This document shows positions 928 to 15,742 of a stretch of 44,158 nt of DNA, piece after piece. Within the stretch, counting starts at the first letter, position 1, and each line of letters starts with the position of its first letter. Under the pieces are notes generated by a model. That model searched no databases and had not been told where the DNA came from. It was given only the letters and a program-made list of their open reading frames with translations. Source of the stretch: a virus; IMG/VR virus record IMGVR_UViG_3300031998_000219, positions 1-44,158 of that record; one strand, written 5' to 3'. The position numbers were made by a program, and so were the translations under genes.

Positions 928-1431
928 TCAACTTTTGATTTTGTTTTTGACAATATCCCAACCGTCTTTTCCCAATGCCATTGCAAGCGGGAAACACGTT
1001 ATATCTCCTTTGGGTACAACAACATCGTAAAAACCCAATTGGCCCGATACAGGCATTTCCACAACCGGGCGTGGGTTGCGCATCATCCATCCCCAACCCT
1101 TTTTGGGTCTGTCCTGTACAGGGATGCAAGTTGCGGCCCAATCTTCCGCCGTGAAATCTTCAACCCGCTTGACATCGTACAATTCCACGAATCCCAACGT
1201 AACGCCGGACATCATGCCGGGCAATACGGGTTTTGCGCTTGAACAAACCAATACGTCGCCGCGATATGTCGTATTCCTTGAACGAACTTCAATGGATTTT
1301 TGGGCGTGACGTTCCCCGTTATCGTCTATATATTCAACCCGCGTTAATAATGACGCATAAGGTTGTTTGACGCTTAACCCTTTGAATTTGTCGTGCAATT
1401 CGGGGTTATAATCTTTTTTGTCTAACTGCAT
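928..1431 (-). CDS. ASCH/PUA-like domain protein, 167 aa
   Basis: LSVKQPYASLL...IEVRSRNTTYRGDVLVCSS resembles the ASCH-domain N-terminal pattern (KQPWA..I..G.K..E.R....RG). Motif-level call only. Confidence 0.5.
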   Translation of the reverse strand: MQLDKKDYNPELHDKFKGLSVKQPYASLLTRVEYIDDNGERHAQKSIEVRSRNTTYRGDVLVCSSAKPVLPGMMSGVTLGFVELYDVKRVEDFTAEDWAATCIPVQDRPKKGWGWMMRNPRPVVEMPVSGQLGFYDVVVPKGDITCFPLAMALGKDGWDIVKNKIKS

Positions 1432-5303: not shown

Positions 5304-5453
5304 TTACTTCAAACCCAAAGATTCTTTTGCCACATCCATTCCTCGCAATACGCCCTTTTGGAATGCGTCGCACAACATCCGGGTTATACTCTCAATGTAA
5401 GGTCCGCAAACCTTTTGCATTTCTTCGTTTGTTTTTCTAATTGATTTGTCCAT
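5304..5453 (-). CDS. Small hypothetical protein, 49 aa (below the ORF-track cutoff)
   Basis: MDKSIRKTNEEMQKVCGPYIESITRMLCDAFQKGVLRGMDVAKESLGLK, preceded by the recurrent context ATACAGGCGATATG. Confidence 0.45.
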   Translation of the reverse strand: MDKSIRKTNEEMQKVCGPYIESITRMLCDAFQKGVLRGMDVAKESLGLK

Positions 5454-5468
5454 ATCGCCTGTATTTAG

Positions 5469-6042: not shown

Positions 6043-6420
6043 TTAATCAATTCTTCTCCAATCCAAATTTTTGAAACTGAAACGTTTTTCGGTGCGCTTG
6101 ATATAGAATGCGCGAACGAAATCCGGTTCATATTCTTTGGTTAAATCGCCACGTTTTACACCTCTTTCCAATGTTTGTGAACAATCGTTCAATTCATCCA
6201 ATGAACTCTTGCCGTAACATTCGTATTTGTTTGTTATCACAAACATTGTTGAACCAACCGGCATTTCCTTTATATCATCCAAAACGTTACAGAAACGGCC
6301 CAAAAAACCGGGGTGCATAGCCTGTTCGGTAAAAAGGAAAGAACGCATTTGGCGGAAACCCTCTTTGTCTGCGTTCCATATTAATGCCGTTCCATTCTCA
6401 ATAAAAAGTTTGTGTGTCAT
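6043..6420 (-). CDS. Hypothetical protein, 125 aa, first gene of a unit that also carries the three tRNAs
   Basis: Start moved to MTHKLFIENG (context AAAGCGATATG). The 22 codons upstream in the ORF track are the promoter-leader cassette. The stop lies 7 nt from the tRNA-Gln 5' end. Confidence 0.6.
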   Translation of the reverse strand: MTHKLFIENGTALIWNADKEGFRQMRSFLFTEQAMHPGFLGRFCNVLDDIKEMPVGSTMFVITNKYECYGKSSLDELNDCSQTLERGVKRGDLTKEYEPDFVRAFYIKRTEKRFSFKNLDWRRID

Positions 6421-6522
6421 ATCGCTTTGTATTTGGTCCCGGGAACCCGCCCGGTCGGTCAGATTCGCAACCGAATCCGAATGCAAATATAAGCATACTT
6501 TTTTATGTGCAATAACTTTTGA
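6421..6522 (-). promoter_or_regulatory. Promoter-leader cassette A
   Basis: Minus strand reads AAAGTTATTGC (-33 region, 6509-6516), 18 nt, then TATATTTG (-7, 6491-6484). This is followed by hairpin GATTCG/CGAATC (6462-6477), hairpin CCGGG/CCCGG with loop CGGGTT (6439-6454), an 18-nt spacer and the ATG. Homologous to cassettes B, C and D. Confidence 0.65.
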
Positions 6523-6723: not shown

Positions 6724-6982
6724 TTTGTATTTCTCTTTTGAAATAGGCCCGGGAACCATAACACGTTACAAGTTCCCAACCCTTTGCGCCTAAATCGTGA
6801 AACATTTTGTGTTCGGTTTCCAAACCCAAACCGTCCAATTTCATAATCTTGTATTCCCATTGTGTTTTGGGTTCCATCCCTTGTTCTTTTGTATCGCGGA
6901 ATAATGGATGGGTACATTTGAAATCCGCCCGAAATGATTTGCAATAATCTTTCATTTCGCAATCATTACATTTGTTACTCAT
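6716..6982 (-). CDS. Cys-rich N-terminus plus DUF4177-like C-terminal domain, 88 aa
   Basis: WEYKIMKLDGLGLETEHKMFHDLGAKGWELV resembles the DUF4177 pattern (WEYK.....G.....L...LN.LG.eGWELV). Start context GGCGATATG. Confidence 0.5.
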   Translation of the reverse strand: MSNKCNDCEMKDYCKSFRADFKCTHPLFRDTKEQGMEPKTQWEYKIMKLDGLGLETEHKMFHDLGAKGWELVTCYGSRAYFKREIQNG

Positions 6983-6993
6983 ATCGCCTTTTG

Positions 6994-7389
6994 TTATTTA
7001 ATGGGTAATTTCTTCAAATCATCAATCAATATGTATTTCGAATCCCACACGGCACACCGGACCAAACGCGGGTCGCGGTCTGAGGTTCTTTCATCATCCG
7101 GGATTACGATTGCATCCGATGGGAACTTATATCCGGCTTTGCATTTGCGCCATTTTACTGCTTGTTGCAAAATGTTTTTCCCAAAAACAGAAACAAAATC
7201 ATCGTATTTGCATTGTACGATTTGTTTTTCTTCATCAATAGAACCGAATGCGGGACAACATTTGCAACTATTTGAACCCACGGTGCAAAAAGAATGTTCA
7301 CATAAAGTTTGGGACCAATCCCCAATGACGGTGTGCCCCTCTACCGTTATGGTTCCATCTTTCAATATTGTATAATGTTTCGCTTCCAT
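6994..7389 (-). CDS. Hypothetical Cys-rich protein, 131 aa
   Basis: Intact ORF with start context GGCGATATG. Confidence 0.55.
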   Translation of the reverse strand: MEAKHYTILKDGTITVEGHTVIGDWSQTLCEHSFCTVGSNSCKCCPAFGSIDEEKQIVQCKYDDFVSVFGKNILQQAVKWRKCKAGYKFPSDAIVIPDDERTSDRDPRLVRCAVWDSKYILIDDLKKLPIK

Positions 7390-7401
7390 ATCGCCCGGTG
7401 T

Positions 7402-10346: not shown

Positions 10347-11062
10347 TCGTCTTTATTTGTTAGTAATAGGGATAAATTTTCCGTGGGGTGCATTGCATCC
10401 CGGATTTCGCCGCATCTGTTGTAATTGGCGATACAGGAAACCACCGGGTAACGGGAATTGTCGCCCGGCTTGTTGCTTTTGGCGAATTGTACTGACAAAT
10501 CGAATACCGTGTTGGTAACGGTTCCGTACATCGTTTGTACTGCATCGAACGAATTGCGAATGTTCTTGACGCTTGACGCCTTACCCTTGGTTGCAAATTG
10601 CCATACACCAACCACGCCCCGGACGGCCGGAATGATTACGCGCATTGTCAATGTCACGTCCCAATTTTCCGCACCGCGTTTCGTCGGATTCTTGGCCGCA
10701 ATCTGTTCCATTATTTGCGGATAATCATTGATGGAATACGGCGCGTATTTCTTGCCGTCCCAAACCTCGAATGTCTGACCGTCGCCGGATGCAACCAACG
10801 CGCCTTTGTCGTCCCTATATTCGTAACGTTCGCGGCATACCTTTTCGGGGTCGTCATCCGGGAATATAACTTGAATCGTTTGCGGCTTTTCGCCTAACGC
10901 TTGCGTGAACAATGCCGCATATTTACCCGTCGGCCGGAACCAATCAATGGATTGCGGCAAACCGCGTTCGTTCTTCATACCGATATGCAAACGGCCGATT
11001 TCCGGCAATTCCAACATCGAACCGTTTGCGTCGTTTCTAATTATTCGTCCGCCCATACTCAC
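10343..11062 (-). CDS. Hypothetical protein, 239 aa, partner of the exonuclease (possible ssDNA-annealing or ssDNA-binding role by position only)
   Basis: Its start overlaps the exonuclease gene stop. No RecT, ERF or Rad52 motif recognised by eye. Confidence 0.6.
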   Translation of the reverse strand: MSMGGRIIRNDANGSMLELPEIGRLHIGMKNERGLPQSIDWFRPTGKYAALFTQALGEKPQTIQVIFPDDDPEKVCRERYEYRDDKGALVASGDGQTFEVWDGKKYAPYSINDYPQIMEQIAAKNPTKRGAENWDVTLTMRVIIPAVRGVVGVWQFATKGKASSVKNIRNSFDAVQTMYGTVTNTVFDLSVQFAKSNKPGDNSRYPVVSCIANYNRCGEIRDAMHPTENLSLLLTNKDE

Positions 11063-12291
11063 ATTTCAATATCTAAATTCAACAAATCAGTCTTTGCCGC
11101 CATCGGTTCCGGGTCGGCTTTCGGTAAATTTTCCGTGTTTTGCCCTGTATTCGATTTTCTTTCGTCTGACGTGGGTTTGGACGGGCGCGAACTTTTCGTG
11201 GCTCTGACGGCCTTATTTGGGGCCGAATCGGGTGCGTTGTCCGAATCTTTGGATTCCGGGGATTTTATACCCAATGCCTTTTCCGCGGATTCGATTTCTT
11301 CTTTGGTTATTGTCGGGGCGTTGGCCGCCTGTTCCGGGGTGTCTTTTTTGTCCCTCTTTGTCTTTATCAGTTCGGCCAATGACAGATTCAACAAATTATC
11401 CTCAATCTTGCCGTTATCCAAATCCAATTGGCCTTGCACGATGGTAAACGTGTTGTCTCTCTTTGCATCTTCGATGGCGGCCAAATCTAACAAATACGGA
11501 ATCTTCTTGGCATTCACGGAATCCGTTTGGTCTTTTAAATTGTATGACGGGGCCTTGCGCCAATCCTTGGGACTGAAATTGAACAACTTTTGTATCGGCT
11601 TTTCCGGGCAATACACATCCCACATCATTTTGTACAAATGCAATTGGATTTCGTGTTCCTCGTAAAATCCTTTGCGCCCGCTTTTGAAATCCACGATGGC
11701 GGTAAAGGTTTCGGCCGTCTTGGGGTTCGTCATTTCGCACGGCAAATCAAGACATCCGGCATAATGGTATTCGGGATGTACCAACGCGATTTCAACGGCC
11801 AACGGTTTTACGTTCCAATCCTTGACGAATTGGGCGAACGCCAACACGTCTTTGCGTATTGTAACCAACCAATCGCCAAACACCTTATCCGGCAAATTGT
11901 TCCGTTCCATATAATCCAACAGAACACCCGGTACGGCGTCGAAATCGTAATGGCGGTTGATTATCAGTTCTTCGAATTGGGCGTGCATAAACGTACCGTA
12001 TGCGGCCGCCAAATCCCTTTTTTCCGTCGAACCCTCTTTGCCATTGGCGGCAATCCAATCCAATAACGCGGGTGGGGTCGGCATTACCTGTTTCAACAAT
12101 GTAGTTACGGACGGGTAAAATTCCGGGTTGCCGTTGGCGTCGAACCGGTAATAATAACGGTGGCCGTCCGAATTCAATTGATAAACTTTGTATGGCGGTT
12201 CTTTCAACGCATCAGCATTGAAAAACAACGCCGTCATTTCTTCCACGGTCATTCCCGGGAACAACTCTTTTGTCGTGTCTTTTGTTTCCAT
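11059..12291 (-). CDS. PD-(D/E)XK (RecB/Cas4-type) exonuclease with a long disordered C-terminal tail, 410 aa
   Basis: Motifs GCLDL, IVDFKSG (D-x-K) and QLHLY (QxxxY) occur in canonical order. The last ~110 aa are low-complexity K/S/P/E/A. Start context ATACAGGCGATATG. Confidence 0.7.
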   Translation of the reverse strand: METKDTTKELFPGMTVEEMTALFFNADALKEPPYKVYQLNSDGHRYYYRFDANGNPEFYPSVTTLLKQVMPTPPALLDWIAANGKEGSTEKRDLAAAYGTFMHAQFEELIINRHYDFDAVPGVLLDYMERNNLPDKVFGDWLVTIRKDVLAFAQFVKDWNVKPLAVEIALVHPEYHYAGCLDLPCEMTNPKTAETFTAIVDFKSGRKGFYEEHEIQLHLYKMMWDVYCPEKPIQKLFNFSPKDWRKAPSYNLKDQTDSVNAKKIPYLLDLAAIEDAKRDNTFTIVQGQLDLDNGKIEDNLLNLSLAELIKTKRDKKDTPEQAANAPTITKEEIESAEKALGIKSPESKDSDNAPDSAPNKAVRATKSSRPSKPTSDERKSNTGQNTENLPKADPEPMAAKTDLLNLDIEM

Positions 12292-12303
12292 ATCGCCTGT
12301 ATG

Positions 12304-12465
12304 TTACTTTTTGTTGATTCTCATTATTTGTATGTATTCGCGCAAGAACATTCCAAAGTTGATTGCGGACAAAATGATTACGGCAAACAATGCCGGTTGC
12401 CAAAAGATTGCGACGATGGCGCAACCCAATACCACGGCCCAAATGATGGCCCAAAACAGATTCAA
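12304..12465 (-). CDS. Possible small two-TM membrane protein, 53 aa, with TTG start
   Basis: NLFWAIIWAVVLGCAIVAIFWQPALFAVIILSAINFGMFLREYIQIMRINKK is strongly hydrophobic. The only in-frame ATG (12483) is followed by AAA TAT TAA. See findings. Confidence 0.35.
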   Translation of the reverse strand: MNLFWAIIWAVVLGCAIVAIFWQPALFAVIILSAINFGMFLREYIQIMRINKK

Positions 12466-13226: not shown

Positions 13227-13372
13227 AAGACGTATTCGGGATTATGCTTTTTGAACAATAGGAAACTGACGAATAGGTTTGCACCCACAATCAGATACCA
13301 CCATAAATGTTCGGATTCGCCACACATCGCCAATAAGGATATGGCGAAATAGATTGATGAAAACTTTTTCAT
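13223..13372 (-). CDS. Small two-TM membrane protein, 49 aa (below the ORF-track cutoff)
   Basis: MKKFSSIYFAISLLAMCGESEHLWWYLIVGANLFVSFLLFKKHNPEYVL has start context GGGCGATATG, and its stop overlaps the next ATG. Confidence 0.5.
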   Translation of the reverse strand: MKKFSSIYFAISLLAMCGESEHLWWYLIVGANLFVSFLLFKKHNPEYVL

Positions 13373-13383
13373 ATCGCCCGTTA

Positions 13384-13839
13384 TTACTTGTTATTCATCA
13401 TTCTTTCCATAAAGGTATGTTCAAATTGTTCCATTACCTGTTGGCGTTTCTCTTTCTTGAATTGCTCAAAACAATTCTCAACCAAAGTTTTAGACATCGC
13501 TTCAATTTCTTTGGCAAATTGTGAATTATCGGATGAATAATACCCGGTTTTATACGCAAATCGGTTCTTTATCCATTCTTCAATTGAATAATCTTTGCCA
13601 TCAAGTCTAAACTTGATTTCTTTGGCGGCTTTTTTGATACACTTTGAAACCTCTTTTTTAAATGTTGTTTCAATGTAATTTGTTACCTGTCTTTGGATTT
13701 CCTTTACAATGTCGGTATTTAACTTCTCTGTTAAACCCCTCTTAACCTCGTTCAAGATTAAACGTTTGAATTCTTCTTTTGCACTATCTTCGTTGTAATC
13801 AAAGAATTCGCCTAAATCAATTTCAATTGTTCCTTTCAT
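13384..13839 (-). CDS. Hypothetical Lys/Glu-rich protein, 151 aa
   Basis: Intact ORF directly downstream of promoter-leader cassette B. Start context AAAGCGATATG. Confidence 0.6.
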   Translation of the reverse strand: MKGTIEIDLGEFFDYNEDSAKEEFKRLILNEVKRGLTEKLNTDIVKEIQRQVTNYIETTFKKEVSKCIKKAAKEIKFRLDGKDYSIEEWIKNRFAYKTGYYSSDNSQFAKEIEAMSKTLVENCFEQFKKEKRQQVMEQFEHTFMERMMNNK

Positions 13840-13925
13840 ATCGCTTTGTCTTTAATCCCGGAACCCGCCGGGTCGGTGTTGCAAAGTTAGTTATTATTTC
13901 TTTATGTGCAATAACTTTCGGTTTA
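13840..13925 (-). promoter_or_regulatory. Promoter-leader cassette B
   Basis: Minus strand reads AAAGTTATTGC (13908-13915), 19 nt, then TAACTTTG (13889-13882). This is followed by hairpin CCCGG/CCGGG with loop CGGGTT (13857-13872), a 17-nt spacer and the ATG. Confidence 0.65.
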
Positions 13926-14284: not shown

Positions 14285-14300
14285 ATCGGTAAATGGTAAT

Positions 14301-14318
14301 GGCCCCGTTTCCGGGGCC
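14301..14318 (-). terminator. GC hairpin GGCCCCG-GAAA-CGGGGCC (GNRA loop) between two genes
   Basis: 7-bp perfect stem, 9 nt after the stop at 14327 and 17 nt before the next ATG. With no U-tract, it could be an attenuator, a processing site or a stabiliser. Confidence 0.45.
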
Positions 14319-14326
14319 GTGGGTTA

Positions 14327-14539
14327 TCAATTAAGTTCAACGGTTATTTTTGCCACGATGTAACCATCTTTTACAACAAAACAGGAATACGGGTTTTCGG
14401 TGTCGTTGATGGCGTATGTTACGCTTTTGTAACCTCTTTGTGCGCGGTGGATTTCCTTGTAATAGTTATCAGCATTGAAAACGGTTATTTCGCGGTAACT
14501 CTTTGACTTTTCCGGGTTGCTGAAATTAAATGTTGTCAT
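14327..14539 (-). CDS. Hypothetical protein, 70 aa
   Basis: Start moved to MTTFNFSN (AAAGCGATATG context). The upstream part of the track ORF is cassette C. The N-terminus resembles that of the 16019-16258 gene (MTTLNYT). Confidence 0.55.
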   Translation of the reverse strand: MTTFNFSNPEKSKSYREITVFNADNYYKEIHRAQRGYKSVTYAINDTENPYSCFVVKDGYIVAKITVELN

Positions 14540-14640
14540 ATCGCTTTCATTTTTGTTCGCGGAACCGCCCGCGTGCGTTGGATTCACAACTGAATCCATT
14601 GCAAATATCAGCATTTATTTTTATTCCGCAATAACTTTTA
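14540..14640 (-). promoter_or_regulatory. Promoter-leader cassette C
   Basis: Minus strand reads AAAGTTATTGC (14628-14635), 19 nt, then GATATTTG (14609-14602). This is followed by hairpin GGATTC/GAATCC (14580-14597), hairpin CGCGG/CCGCG with loop GCGGTT (14558-14573), an 18-nt spacer and the ATG. Confidence 0.6.
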
Positions 14641-14706
14641 CTTATTATTTTTACTGAAAATGCAACTTTTTTTCTGAATCGCGCCCACAACACGTTTAAA
14701 CGGGGT

Positions 14707-14714
14707 TATCTTTG
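14707..14714 (+). promoter_or_regulatory. Plus-strand -7 box TATCTTTG upstream of the only plus-strand ORF
   Basis: Perfect TAnnTTTG match 27 nt upstream of the ATG at 14742. No convincing -33 box. Confidence 0.4.
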
Positions 14715-14741
14715 CGGGGTAAACCAATAAATTTTTCAATT

Positions 14742-14876
14742 ATGCCCGTACACAAAACAAATAGTGGTTACAAATTCGGGGAATCCGGCAAAACCTATCC
14801 CACCCGTGCGCAAGCGGAACAACAGGCCCGCGCAATTTACGCATCCGGATACAGGGAAAAAGACAAACGCAAATGA
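14742..14876 (+). CDS. Small basic protein, 44 aa, the only plus-strand gene candidate
   Basis: MPVHKTNSGYKFGESGKTYPTRAQAEQQARAIYASGYREKDKRK has ATTATG start context, sits in an otherwise non-coding gap, and is followed by a plus-oriented intrinsic terminator. Confidence 0.5.
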   Translation: MPVHKTNSGYKFGESGKTYPTRAQAEQQARAIYASGYREKDKRK

Positions 14877-14966
14877 AATAGGGGAAATTTACCACTAATT
14901 ACCGCTAATTTCCTATATTTGCATCGTCTTTTTACCATCATATCGCCTGTATCGGTATTTTGACGG

Positions 14967-14997
14967 CCGCCCCGGATTCGTTCGGGGCGGTTTTATT
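14967..14997 (+). terminator. Plus-strand intrinsic terminator (CCGCCCCG-8 nt-CGGGGCGG followed by TTTTATT)
   Basis: 8-bp GC stem with the T-tract only on the plus strand. It lies just after the stop of the minus-strand gene 14993-15523. Confidence 0.6.
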
Positions 14998-15523
14998 CAT
15001 TCATTTGGCGAATCGCGGCCGCCCGTATCGAATCGTGTTTTAACCAATAATCGTATTGGTACAAATTCCCGTAATGGCCCGTTTCCAACAGGTAACGGCG
15101 CAACGTATCCGGTTCCAACTCAATCAACGATGCGTACAATTCTTTGCGCACGTCCAAATGGCACGCACGTTCAAACGTGGGGTCAATATAGCGGTCCCCG
15201 TATTTAACGAATGCGTGTTCGATTGGGAACATACAATATGCGTAACCCTCAATGTATCGCACCGATTCCGGGAACAACCAATCGGCCCGTTCCATCAAAA
15301 ACACCAATTCGGCCGCGTTCCTGTAACATTGCTTTTGTTGGGCGTGGTAAAACCCTTTGATGAATTCAAGTTGTTTCGCCGTCAGAACGTCACGCATACG
15401 TTCGCATTGGACCGGGCGGCAATCCTTTACAATTTGTTCGAAATACGATTGTTGTTCCCGGCCCCATTTTAATTGCGTCATTCCCTTTAATTGTTCGATG
15501 ATGGGGTTTTCCTGTTCGTTCAT
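14993..15523 (-). CDS. Hypothetical protein, 176 aa
   Basis: Intact ORF with start context AGGATATG. No motif recognised. Confidence 0.6.
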   Translation of the reverse strand: MNEQENPIIEQLKGMTQLKWGREQQSYFEQIVKDCRPVQCERMRDVLTAKQLEFIKGFYHAQQKQCYRNAAELVFLMERADWLFPESVRYIEGYAYCMFPIEHAFVKYGDRYIDPTFERACHLDVRKELYASLIELEPDTLRRYLLETGHYGNLYQYDYWLKHDSIRAAAIRQMNE

Positions 15524-15726
15524 ATCCTGTTGGTTCGGTTAGAATAATCCCTTATTGTATCTTCGCTGATACCCAAATCGAAAGTCCTGTTAATACGGCG
15601 CAACAATTCCAATTTGGGTTCTATTTCATCGGTTGAATACAACCCCATATTCCACGCGGGTAAATCGTTCAGTTGGAAAACCTGTTCCCGGACGAATTGT
15701 TTTAATGATTCCTTTGTTACTTCCAT
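15520..15726 (-). CDS. Hypothetical protein, 68 aa
   Basis: Start moved to MEVTKESLK (AAAGCGATATG context), downstream of the hairpin at 15743-15760. Confidence 0.5.
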   Translation of the reverse strand: MEVTKESLKQFVREQVFQLNDLPAWNMGLYSTDEIEPKLELLRRINRTFDLGISEDTIRDYSNRTNRI

Positions 15727-15742
15727 ATCGCTTTTGTGTTGT

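What the first reader, a model, noticed from the sequence alone, without database searches (positions are those of the whole stretch)
14641..14997. Only plus-strand gene in an otherwise minus-strand genome: 44-aa basic ORF with its own -7 box and intrinsic terminator
About 70 genes are on the minus strand. The 378-nt gap at 14615-14992 instead carries a plus-strand TATCTTTG -7 box (14707-14714) and an ORF with ATTATG context (14742-14876, MPVHKTNSGYKFGESGKTYPTRAQAEQQARAIYASGYREKDKRK). It also has a hairpin whose T-tract lies on the plus strand (14967-14997). The unit is convergent with the upstream minus-strand gene and divergent from promoter cassette C. That is the geometry of a regulatory switch or an inserted moron. 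The same TATCTTTG box version precedes both HNH genes, which hints at a shared expression class or a mobile origin.
Basis: partly seen in the sequence, partly recalled or inferred. Interest (0 to 1): 0.6.

Follow-up and report, generated by a model that had tools for sequence, protein, structure and literature searches.

The report
Backwards phage cassette: tiny protein plus sRNA
The only gene pointing the "wrong" way in this 44-kb gut phage is real: it encodes a 44-residue protein common in many phages, and it is always followed by a small RNA gene whose exposed loop mirrors the start codon of the phage's own exonuclease gene, so the unit probably turns that gene's translation down.

Summary
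ORF 14742-14876(+) is a real gene. Its codon usage beats all five other frames, and every other plus-strand ORF looks like the shadow of a minus-strand gene. Across 20 relatives pN is 0.13 against pS 0.65. It matches phrog_31267 and has relatives in more than 550 IMG/VR contigs and in cultured Roseobacter, Escherichia, Streptomyces, Aeromonas and Vibrio phages.

In those other phages the gene lies co-oriented beside portal, terminase, scaffold and capsid genes. It also forms the N-terminus of MuF, DUF2213, prohead-protease and ADP-ribosyltransferase proteins. This points to a head- or DNA-associated role, which is inferred only.

In the window and all 23 syntenic relatives, a second -7 box (14914-14921) follows the stop codon.

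The first loop of this RNA pairs with positions -11 to +3 of the PD-(D/E)XK exonuclease gene (start 12291), and its 5' arm pairs with positions +8 to +14. Relatives keep this pairing through compensating changes. A sister clade has neither RNA nor ORF, and it also lacks the target motif.

The same RNA family was already noted by this scan in another genome (e1-3474497). No transcript has been seen. The link to the HNH genes is not supported.

The parts
14707..14714 (+). P1: Bacteroidota-type -7 box (TATCTTTG) of the small-protein gene, 27 nt before the ATG
   Evidence: A box sits at the same position in the window and 23 relatives: exact TAnnTTTG in 21 of 24, one mismatch in 3. Promoter activity is inferred, not shown.
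14742..14876 (+). 44-aa basic protein gene (P0001; phrog_31267 family; predicted three short strands plus one long helix)
   Evidence: AlphaFold2 model with mean pLDDT 79.8.
14883..14913 (+). Inverted repeat just after the stop codon (GGAAATT ... AATTTCC), ending directly at the P2 box. It may be a weak attenuator hairpin or an operator; its role is unresolved.
   Evidence: The outer arms GGAAWT/AWTTCC are conserved and the inner stems vary among relatives. In several relatives the hairpin is followed by a T-run.
14914..14921 (+). P2: second -7 box (TATATTTG) heading the small RNA
   Evidence: Several of its columns are invariant in the alignment of 22 genomes (TAT[CA]TTTG). The conserved GTC follows after 3-5 nt.
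14926..14964 (+). First stem-loop (SL1) of the predicted ~72-nt sRNA: outer stem GUC/GAC, inner stem UACC/GGUA, and an apical loop carrying the anti-start-codon seed (14939-14952, CATATCGCCTGTAT)
   Evidence: Fifteen diverse relatives fold to the same architecture on their own, with z-scores of -2.1 to -6.1. The UAUCG core is invariant.
14965..14997 (+). Intrinsic terminator shared by the P1 and P2 transcripts (12-bp stem, UUCG loop, U-run). The U-run overlaps the stop codon of the convergent gene 14993-15523(-).
   Evidence: The stem covaries among relatives (GC/CG/AU/UA/GU at the same column pairs). There is no U-run on the minus strand.
12276..12311 (-). Predicted primary target: the translation-initiation region of the PD-(D/E)XK exonuclease gene (11059-12291). 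It has a 14-nt perfect complement at 12289-12302 that includes the AUG, plus AAAAGAC at +8.
   Evidence: It ranks first among 93 minus-strand ORF starts.
5451..5464 (-). Second perfect 14-nt complement to the sRNA loop, covering the start codon of a 49-aa ORF (5304-5453)

Best explanation
The plus-strand unit is a conserved two-gene cassette.

Gene 1, read from P1, encodes a 44-residue basic protein of a very widespread and so far unnamed phage family. In other phages this protein belongs to the head-assembly module, or forms the N-terminus of proteins that are packaged in the head. Its most likely role is therefore a small nucleic-acid- or portal-associated head protein. That role is inferred at about 35% and nothing about it is shown.

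Gene 2, read from P2 just after the stop codon and ending at the same terminator, is a ~72-nt RNA with two hairpins. The large loop and 5' arm of the first hairpin base-pair with positions -11 to +3 and +8 to +14 of the mRNA of the phage's PD-(D/E)XK exonuclease, the first gene of the recombination/replication block. The loop pairs more weakly with other early genes that carry the same GCGAUAUG start tag.

Pairing over the start codon would block ribosome loading and so lower synthesis of the exonuclease, probably as part of early-gene shut-off. The longer P1 transcript carries the same RNA as its 3' end, so it may act in the same way.

Shown: the gene, the conservation of each element, the shared fold, the complementarity and its co-variation. 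Inferred: transcription from P1 and P2, and repression of translation.
For: Evidence that the ORF is real:
- Codon log-odds are positive against all five other frames.
- pN/pS is 0.13/0.65.
- It matches phrog_31267 at E 2.8e-10.
- There are 70 homologues of similar length and 264 representatives of 50%-identity clusters.

Evidence on the family's context:
- The most frequent named neighbours in 57 non-syntenic loci are portal, large terminase, scaffold and major head proteins.
- The module is found at residues 1-40 of proteins carrying MuF (PF04233), DUF2213, Peptidase_S78_2, ART-PolyVal, zeta toxin, NUDIX and SNF2 domains.

Evidence for the cassette:
- All 23 syntenic relatives in which the ORF is reverse-oriented carry the P2 box, the conserved body, a covarying terminator stem and a downstream T-run (clear in most) about 172 nt after the ATG. 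None of the 57 loci with a co-oriented ORF do.
- In an independent IMG/VR pattern scan, every true RNA hit whose upstream sequence could be read has the ORF or its Lys-rich 3' end just upstream.

Evidence for the target:
- In the window there is a 14-nt perfect match that includes the AUG. The duplex energy is -29.8 kcal/mol, ranking first of 93 gene starts (mean -11.6, sd 4.7).
- The first in-frame ATG of the exonuclease is preceded within 0-4 nt by a (G)CGAUAY-type tag in all 17 loci examined.
- The exonuclease start ranks first in 9 of 15 genomes and fifth or better in all 15.
- Cognate duplexes average -23.3 kcal/mol, against -8.9 for shuffled targets and -21.3 for non-cognate pairs (permutation p = 0.0004).
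- There are compensating changes: GUCCUCUU/AAGAGGAC in L042, GUCUCUUU/AAAGAGAC in L068, AAUCG/CGAUU in L011, and in the window CAUAUCGC/GCGAUAUG against the consensus CGUAUCGC/GCGAUACG.
- In a sister clade of 77 loci, with an exonuclease about 55% identical, the ORF and the RNA are absent and the tag is absent too (0 of 77).
Against: - No transcript, transcription start site or protein has been observed; every promoter call rests on a motif.
- The non-cognate controls are only 2 kcal/mol weaker than cognate pairs, and the genomes are related, so the permutation p-value overstates independence.
- The comparison of fold stability on the two strands is weak. The plus strand is more stable in 17 of 22 genomes, and five favour the minus strand.
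- Read on the minus strand, the same DNA looks like one more copy of this phage family's 'hairpin, A-rich spacer, GCGAU-AUG' gene-start cassette. The resemblance to the exonuclease start could therefore partly reflect common descent or recombination linkers.
- The sister-clade contrast is a single evolutionary event.
- For the protein, no solved structure matches (best Z 4.4), and this genome has no detectable MuF or DUF2213 partner.
Confidence: 0.6

Rival explanations
1. Protein-only unit. The 44-aa gene is a mobile passenger ('moron') with its own promoter and terminator. The conserved stretch after it is merely its 3' UTR combined with a relic of a minus-strand gene-start cassette (hairpin, spacer, GCGAU-AUG). 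That relic was left where the gene was inserted, and is kept alike by recombination between such linkers rather than by any RNA-RNA function.
For: - Read on the minus strand, 14941-14992 has the same layout as other gene starts of this phage.
- The protein gene does sit at different places in other phages.
Against: - There is no conserved minus-strand ORF here: it is 8 codons long in L008 and has no ATG at all in the L016/L065 type.
- An almost invariant plus-strand -7 box sits 3-5 nt before the conserved body in all 22 aligned genomes.
- The 3' arm of SL1 is conserved although it does not match the exonuclease gene, and the stem tolerates plus-strand G-U pairs in L020 and L068.
- The lineage-specific double changes lie inside exonuclease codons 2-5. 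These are hard to explain by drift of a relic.
Confidence: 0.2
2. Transcriptional insulator. The purpose of the unit is convergent transcription itself. Plus-strand transcription from P1 and P2 collides with, or forms duplex RNA with, minus-strand read-through coming out of gene 14993-15523. This separates two early minus-strand transcription units. The sequences of the peptide and of the loop would be secondary.
For: - The hairpin has a U-run only on the plus strand, so minus-strand transcripts may read through it.
- The unit sits exactly between a gene end and the next minus-strand promoter cassette.
Against: - It does not explain purifying selection on the peptide.
- It does not explain the invariant loop motif or its co-variation with a site 2.6 kb away.
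Confidence: 0.1
3. Protein switch. The 44-aa basic protein is a small DNA-binding regulator that acts on the divergent promoter region (P1 and cassette C) or on the inverted repeat in front of P2, as the first reader's 'regulatory switch' geometry suggests.
For: - It is basic (net charge about +6) and predicted to have a three-strand-plus-helix topology.
- There are weak, non-significant fold resemblances to the lambda Int arm-binding domain and to AP2 DNA-binding domains (Z 3.4).
- A conserved inverted repeat abuts the P2 box.
Against: - The family is found mostly inside head-assembly modules and as the N-terminus of packaged proteins, in phages that lack this promoter arrangement.
- It contains no recognisable regulator domain.
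Confidence: 0.08

Closest known systems
phrog_31267, and the unnamed N-terminal ~40-aa module of MuF/SPP1-gp7-family (PF04233) and DUF2213-containing phage proteins
   Same: The window's protein matches phrog_31267 over residues 1-35 (E 2.8e-10). It shares the motif MP[VI]hK..GGY.[FW]G.[ST]GK.Y.T+.qAe.QarAIyASGY with free-standing 40-60-aa proteins and with residues 1-40 of MuF, DUF2213, XkdF-protease, ART, zeta-toxin, NUDIX and SNF2 fusion proteins.
   Different: No member has a known function or a solved structure. In this genome the gene stands alone, is reverse-oriented in the early region, has no MuF or DUF2213 gene nearby, and is coupled to an sRNA gene. That coupling was seen in none of the 57 other loci.
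c4 antisense RNA of phages P1 and P7 (Rfam RF01695) and sar RNA of P22 (own knowledge)
   Same: It is a small phage-encoded RNA with exposed loops that pairs with the ribosome-loading region of a phage gene in order to block its translation. c4, like this RNA, acts on a site it does not overlap.
   Different: There is no sequence or model match: RF01695 was not among the matches at E up to 10. c4 is processed from the same transcript as its target and controls an antirepressor in an immunity region. The RNA here has its own promoter, lies on the opposite strand 2.6 kb from its target, and targets a recombination exonuclease in what looks like a non-temperate phage of Bacteroidota.
Start-associated sequences (SAS) of Cluster K mycobacteriophages (Pope et al. 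2011, PMC3203893)
   Same: Both are short asymmetric tags placed within a few bases of the start codons of many non-structural genes. Both are restricted to one half of the genome, and single copies occur in the opposite orientation. The authors left open whether a phage RNA or protein reads the tag. In this window GCGATATG occurs 11 times against 1.8 expected, and 9 of these are early-gene starts.
   Different: The SAS contains a Shine-Dalgarno core and no reader has been identified. Here the tag contains the AUG itself, the host type uses no Shine-Dalgarno pairing, and a candidate reader RNA with co-varying complementarity is at hand.
sRNAs made from the 3' end of an mRNA locus by an internal promoter, such as MicL and DapZ of enterobacteria (own knowledge)
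   Same: The sRNA has its own promoter inside, or just behind, a protein-coding unit and shares that unit's terminator. The long mRNA therefore also carries the sRNA sequence.
   Different: Those examples are chromosomal and Hfq-dependent. Bacteroidota lack Hfq (own knowledge), and here both partners are encoded by the phage.
Morons of lambdoid phages: an independent promoter-gene-terminator unit inserted between two genes (own knowledge)
   Same: The unit has its own promoter and terminator, is embedded between genes of another transcription unit, and its protein gene occurs at different sites in different phages.
   Different: It was present in every clade member recovered, while the flanking genes vary. 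It also carries a regulatory RNA directed at a core phage gene.

Membership tests
phrog_31267 (small phage protein of unknown function) | Significant match to the family profile over most of its length | tested here: met
   E 2.8e-10, 41.2 bits; residues 1-35 against profile positions 1-36 of 56.
DUF2213 (PF09979), the label carried by some homologues in GenBank | Match to the Pfam DUF2213 model | tested here: not met
   There is no DUF2213 hit even at E up to 1. The label on the Roseobacter and Aeromonas phage homologues probably arises because the module forms the N-terminus of longer DUF2213 proteins, not because it is part of that domain.
Intrinsic (Rho-independent) terminator | A GC-rich stem-loop followed directly by a U-run on the transcribed strand | tested here: met
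   12 pairs (8 of them G-C), a UUCG loop, then UUUUAUU on the plus strand. The stem covaries and most relatives keep a U-run after it.
Bacteroidota-type promoter (-33 TTTG / -7 TAnnTTTG) | A -7 box at a fixed distance from the transcribed element | tested here: met
   P1 is exact in 21 of 24 genomes, mostly 26-28 nt (range 22-34) before the ATG. P2 is nearly invariant in 22 aligned genomes, 3-5 nt before GTC.
Bacteroidota-type promoter (-33 TTTG / -7 TAnnTTTG) | A -33 element at the proper spacing, and a mapped transcription start | tested here: inconclusive
   No clear TTTG lies about 19-21 nt upstream of either box. No expression data are available with these tools.
Trans-acting antisense sRNA | A conserved secondary structure with an exposed seed | tested here: met
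   Fifteen relatives each fold to SL1 plus a terminator, with the invariant UAUCG in a 13-23-nt loop.
Trans-acting antisense sRNA | Complementarity to a target that is kept through compensating changes | tested here: met
   the core helix is 7-15 bp and the arm helix 5-8 bp. L042, L068, L011 and the window all show changes on both sides.
Trans-acting antisense sRNA | The RNA is made and changes expression of the target | not testable with these tools
   This needs RNA-seq or a Northern blot, plus reporter assays.
Rfam C4 (RF01695) or any other Rfam family | A covariance-model match | tested here: not met
   The whole window searched at gathering thresholds gave only three tRNAs. For 14600-15050 at E up to 10, the best hit is Hrs13 at 16.8 bits against a gathering score of 52.
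Moron | Present or absent at the same site among otherwise collinear relatives | tested here: inconclusive
   The cassette is present in all 23 syntenic relatives, but these were found through the ORF itself. It is absent from the 77 sister-clade loci (exonuclease about 55% identical). No pair of close relatives differing only in this unit was found.

The most novel reading that the evidence does not exclude
The 44-aa protein and the RNA are functional partners. In hosts that lack Hfq and ProQ, the phage would bring its own miniature RNA-binding protein. That protein would stabilise or deliver a 'master' sRNA, which reads a start-codon tag (GCGAUAUG) on the exonuclease and about eight other early genes and shuts that whole class off. 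This would be an RNA counterpart of the T4 RegA translational repressor.

What is observed is strict co-occurrence and co-transcription of the two genes in this clade. There is no evidence that the protein binds RNA, and its relatives elsewhere occur without any such RNA.
Probability: 0.12. Interest if true: 0.85.

Novelty: new variant of a known kind. Interest (0 to 1): 0.6.

Why it matters
First, it turns an 'odd small ORF' into a defined member of a large and unstudied phage protein family. The family has hundreds of clusters across phages of at least four bacterial phyla. Its repeated fusion to MuF, prohead-protease and injected-effector domains gives a concrete hypothesis to test: targeting to, or residence in, the phage head.

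Second, the unit contains a candidate phage regulatory RNA for Bacteroidota. I found no phage-encoded sRNA described for this group in the one literature search I ran. The RNA comes with a predicted target and natural compensatory variants that make the mechanism directly testable.

Third, it offers a possible answer to an old question raised by the start-associated sequences of mycobacteriophages, namely what reads a tag placed on the start codons of many early genes.

The RNA part is not new to this scan. It was noted before in a related genome (e1-3474497). What this report adds is that the RNA is always paired with this protein gene, and that the sister clade lacks RNA, gene and tag together.

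Tried and rejected
The closest homologues (81-93% identical, P0002-P0008) could therefore not be placed on their contigs.
- A distant DNA search of 14300-15600 against 50,697 phage records found nothing.
- Pfam gives no family for the peptide, only DUF3721 at E 0.08.
- PDB sequence, Foldseek and VIA searches gave nothing significant. The best results are AcrIF4 at E 0.22 and Z 3.7, and lambda Int and AP2 domains at Z 3.4. These are leads only.
- The ESM Atlas returned only unnamed clusters.
- The 737-aa hit P0112 is a Listeria-Bacteroides repeat protein that probably shares only a GY.F.GW-like motif with the peptide, so I set it aside.
- I rejected a minus-strand ORF across the RNA (14837-14941, 34 aa), because relatives have 8 codons or no ATG there.
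- I rejected the longer TTG start at 14712 (54 aa), because all homologues begin at MPV.
- The comparison of fold energy on the two strands was too noisy to decide.
- The loose pattern CGTATCGC-N-GGTATT in IMG/VR and the tight pattern in GTDB genomes returned mostly chance hits. For the GTDB scan, 88 hits were found and about that number is expected by chance.
- The true GTDB copies lie on contigs, several of them 44-49 kb, binned into MAGs of Alphaproteobacteria/Ca. Enterousia, Acutalibacteraceae and Elusimicrobiaceae. I read these as binning artefacts, not as hosts.
- Four apparent 'RNA without ORF' hits in the sister clade were regex accidents inside coding sequence.
- The polyvalent-protein paper (PMC5512222) does not name this module.
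I re-ran it from references.

Full report
**What the window is.** The window is a complete 44,158-bp IMG/VR phage genome with direct terminal repeats. All long genes are on the minus strand. Reading that strand, the order is:
- packaging, head and tail genes, then lysis genes, from about 44 kb down to 16.8 kb;
- an island of small early genes;
- a PD-(D/E)XK exonuclease (11059-12291; phrog_298 at E 1e-30, with a weak PDDEXK_1 Pfam match);
- a Gp3-like protein, a winged-helix protein, a replication initiator and a resolvase.
No integrase turned up among the roughly 40 proteins I scanned.

I trained a codon model on 16 long minus-strand genes. The 44-aa ORF scores positive against all five alternative frames. 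Every other sizeable plus-strand ORF scores negative against at least one shadow frame and overlaps a minus-strand ORF; each such minus-strand alternative that I scored was positive. The claim of a 'sole plus-strand gene' therefore stands, with one small ambiguous ORF at 1233-1370.

Across the window and 19 syntenic relatives, synonymous sites are saturated (pS 0.65) while pN is 0.13.

**The protein family.** The peptide matches phrog_31267. It has relatives at 47-63% identity in cultured phages of Roseobacter, Escherichia, Streptomyces, Aeromonas and Vibrio. There are 70 homologues of similar length, 264 representatives of 50%-identity clusters, and more than 556 IMG/VR contigs.

The alignment shows a tight motif that always begins at residue 1, followed by a Lys-rich tail. 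AlphaFold2 predicts three short strands and one long helix, with mean pLDDT 79.8. No solved structure matches convincingly.

About a fifth of the best 150 representatives are 200 residues or longer, and nearly all of these carry the module at their extreme N-terminus. The domains fused behind it are MuF/SPP1-gp7 (many cases), DUF2213, the XkdF-type prohead protease, ART-PolyVal, zeta toxin, NUDIX, PBP and SNF2 helicase.

In 57 loci from unrelated phages the gene is co-oriented and tightly packed with its neighbours. The commonest named neighbours are large terminase, portal, scaffold and major head proteins.

The 'DUF2213' label on some GenBank homologues is probably transferred from those fusion proteins, because the Pfam model itself does not match the peptide.

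From this I infer, without showing it, a role inside or at the head. It could be a small basic nucleic-acid- or portal-binding module. SPP1 gp7 is known to bind both DNA and the portal (own knowledge).

**What is special in this clade.** Twenty-three IMG/VR loci share the window's neighbourhood: the exonuclease, the 171-aa XRE-like gene, and the 98-aa and 201-aa genes. In all of them the small gene is inverted relative to everything around it. The immediate flanking genes differ between relatives, but the unit does not. In a few more distant relatives (L022, L038, L043) the gene is instead co-oriented, either at the end of the lysis/late block or beside a 121-aa gene.

Aligning the sequence after the stop codon shows that the unit has a second half. 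In order, it contains:
- an inverted repeat that starts at the stop codon and ends at a second, almost invariant -7 box (window 14914-14921);
- 3-5 nt further on, a conserved ~40-nt body, GUCUUUUUACC-(A)UCGUAUCGCC-N-GGUAUUUUGAC;
- a GC-rich hairpin whose stem covaries, followed by a T-run.

Fifteen diverse copies each fold on their own into the same two-hairpin RNA of about 70-80 nt, with z-scores of -2.1 to -6.1. The invariant UAUCG lies in a 13-23-nt loop.

This element is found in all 23 inverted loci and in none of the 57 others. A pattern scan of IMG/VR for the RNA alone returned 18 true copies. Fifteen had the full ORF upstream by my regex, and the other three showed the gene's Lys-rich 3' end and stop codon. 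Rfam has no family for it.

**The predicted target.** I scanned the whole genome with the first hairpin. The loop is a perfect 14-nt complement of positions -11 to +3 of the exonuclease gene, start codon included, and the 5' arm (GUCUUUU) pairs with positions +8 to +14. Among the 93 minus-strand ORF starts this is the best duplex (-29.8 kcal/mol; mean -11.6, sd 4.7).

Taking the first in-frame ATG of the exonuclease ORF in 17 genomes, without reference to the RNA, a (G)CGAUAY-type tag lies within 0-4 nt upstream of it in all 17. The exonuclease start is the top-ranked target in 9 of 15 genomes and fifth or better in all 15.

Both helices change together in several lineages:
- arm GUCCUCUU with AAGAGGAC in L042;
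- arm GUCUCUUU with AAAGAGAC in L068;
- loop AAUCG with CGAUU in L011;
- in the window itself, CAUAUCGC with GCGAUAUG, where relatives have CGUAUCGC with GCGAUACG.

Cognate pairs are more stable than non-cognate pairs (-23.3 against -21.3 kcal/mol; permutation p 0.0004) and far more stable than shuffled targets (-8.9, sd 2.8). These genomes are related, so that p-value is optimistic.

A sister clade supplies a contrast. In 77 loci, with an exonuclease about 55% identical, there is no ORF and no RNA. None of the 77 has the tag at the exonuclease start, and GCGATATG occurs at 0.004 per kb, against 0.86 per kb in the window's early region.

**A wider tag.** In the window, GCGATATG occurs 11 times against 1.8 expected (0 of 100 shuffles reach 11). 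Nine of these are start codons of minus-strand genes between 5.4 and 15.7 kb, and one is the antisense of the RNA. One of the nine, at 5451-5464, repeats the full 14-nt match.

In most relatives only the exonuclease and the RNA carry the motif. I therefore treat the exonuclease as the conserved target and the wider set as a possible extension in this genome.

**The main rival.** Read on the minus strand, the RNA locus looks like one more gene-start cassette of this phage family: a hairpin, an A-rich spacer, then GCGAU-AUG. The similarity to the exonuclease start could then be a relic of such a cassette.

Several observations count against this:
- there is no conserved minus-strand ORF here (8 codons in L008, no ATG in the L016 type);
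- the plus-strand -7 box is nearly invariant at a fixed distance;
- the 3' arm of the hairpin is conserved although it does not match the exonuclease gene;
- two relatives have G-U pairs that work only on the plus strand;
- the coordinated changes lie inside exonuclease codons 2-5.

The strand test by fold energy favours the plus strand only weakly, in 17 of 22 genomes. I put this rival at about 0.2.

The geometry is as described: convergent with 14993-15523 and divergent from promoter cassette C.

The idea that the TATCTTTG variant links this unit to the two HNH genes does not hold. It is true that only three copies exist in the window (14707+, 33238-, 39663-). However, the same promoter in relatives uses other variants.

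**Relation to earlier notes of this scan.** The second -7 box and terminator had been flagged on this window as a candidate small RNA (e1-3643524). After I had worked out the target, a word search showed that the same RNA family, with its GCGATACGATG tag on nuclease and recombination genes, had already been reported from another genome (e1-3474497). My result agrees with that note.

This report adds three things: the constant pairing of the RNA with the protein gene, the family-wide context of that protein, and the sister-clade contrast. Another note led me to the start-associated sequences of Cluster K mycobacteriophages. I read that paper, and it leaves open what reads such tags.

**Verdict.** The ORF is real (about 0.95). 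The unit is a conserved cassette of a protein gene plus a small RNA. The antisense mechanism is well supported by comparative evidence, but no transcript has been seen (about 0.6-0.65). The protein's function remains a hypothesis.

Noticed in passing
window 5451-5458, 6418-6425, 6980-6987, 7387-7394, 12289-12296, 13370-13377, 13837-13844, 14537-14544, 15724-15731 (all minus strand): GCGATATG sits on the start codon of nine early genes. The window has 11 copies against 1.8 expected, and none of 100 shuffles reach 11. No copy lies at a late-gene start. This looks like a start-codon tag for the early gene class.
   Followed up: partly
window 14327-14614 (-): The 95-aa ORF next to the unit probably starts at 14539, giving 70 aa beginning MTTFNF and preceded by GCGAT. 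Its first 25 codons overlap its own -7 box (14601-14608) and two leader hairpins.
   Followed up: partly
window 14883-14913 (+), and the same place in 22 relatives: An inverted repeat lies between the stop codon and the P2 box. Its outer arms (GGAAWT/AWTTCC) are conserved and its inner stems vary. In several relatives it is followed by a T-run. It could be an attenuator that ends the protein mRNA, or an operator for P2.
   Followed up: partly
L022:4387-5147, L038:1948-2719, L043:2668-5488: In more distant relatives of the same phage group the small gene is co-oriented. It sits directly after the spanin-like 201-aa gene, or between a 775-aa gene and the 121-aa gene, and has no RNA behind it. 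The inverted, RNA-coupled arrangement is therefore a derived state.
   Followed up: partly
L316-L392 (IMG/VR contigs, mostly from sample 3300045988): A large sister clade of 43-47-kb phages has an exonuclease about 55% identical but lacks the small gene, the RNA and the GCGATATG tag.
   Followed up: partly
L238, L239, L254, L257, L269, L283, L288, L298 (GTDB genome contigs): True copies of the cassette lie on contigs, several of them 44-49 kb, that were binned into MAGs of Alphaproteobacteria/Ca. Enterousia (5), Acutalibacteraceae (2) and Elusimicrobiaceae (1). These are probably whole phage genomes swept into bins. The repeated Enterousia assignment is odd, given the Bacteroidota-type promoters.
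   Followed up: no
window 1142-1421, including GCGATATG at 1261-1268 (+): There is a 280-nt stretch between two minus-strand ORF calls. It holds the only plus-strand copy of the tag and an ambiguous 45-aa plus-strand ORF (codon score -1.4). It may simply be minus-strand coding sequence with an unusual start.
   Followed up: no
L004:3501-4996 (Roseobacter phage CRP-901 gp69 and gp68): The 41-aa homologue is followed at once by a 456-aa gene. Together they are the same length as the fused module-DUF2213 proteins of about 460 aa (P0267, P0281). This looks like a split form and a fused form of one protein.
   Followed up: no
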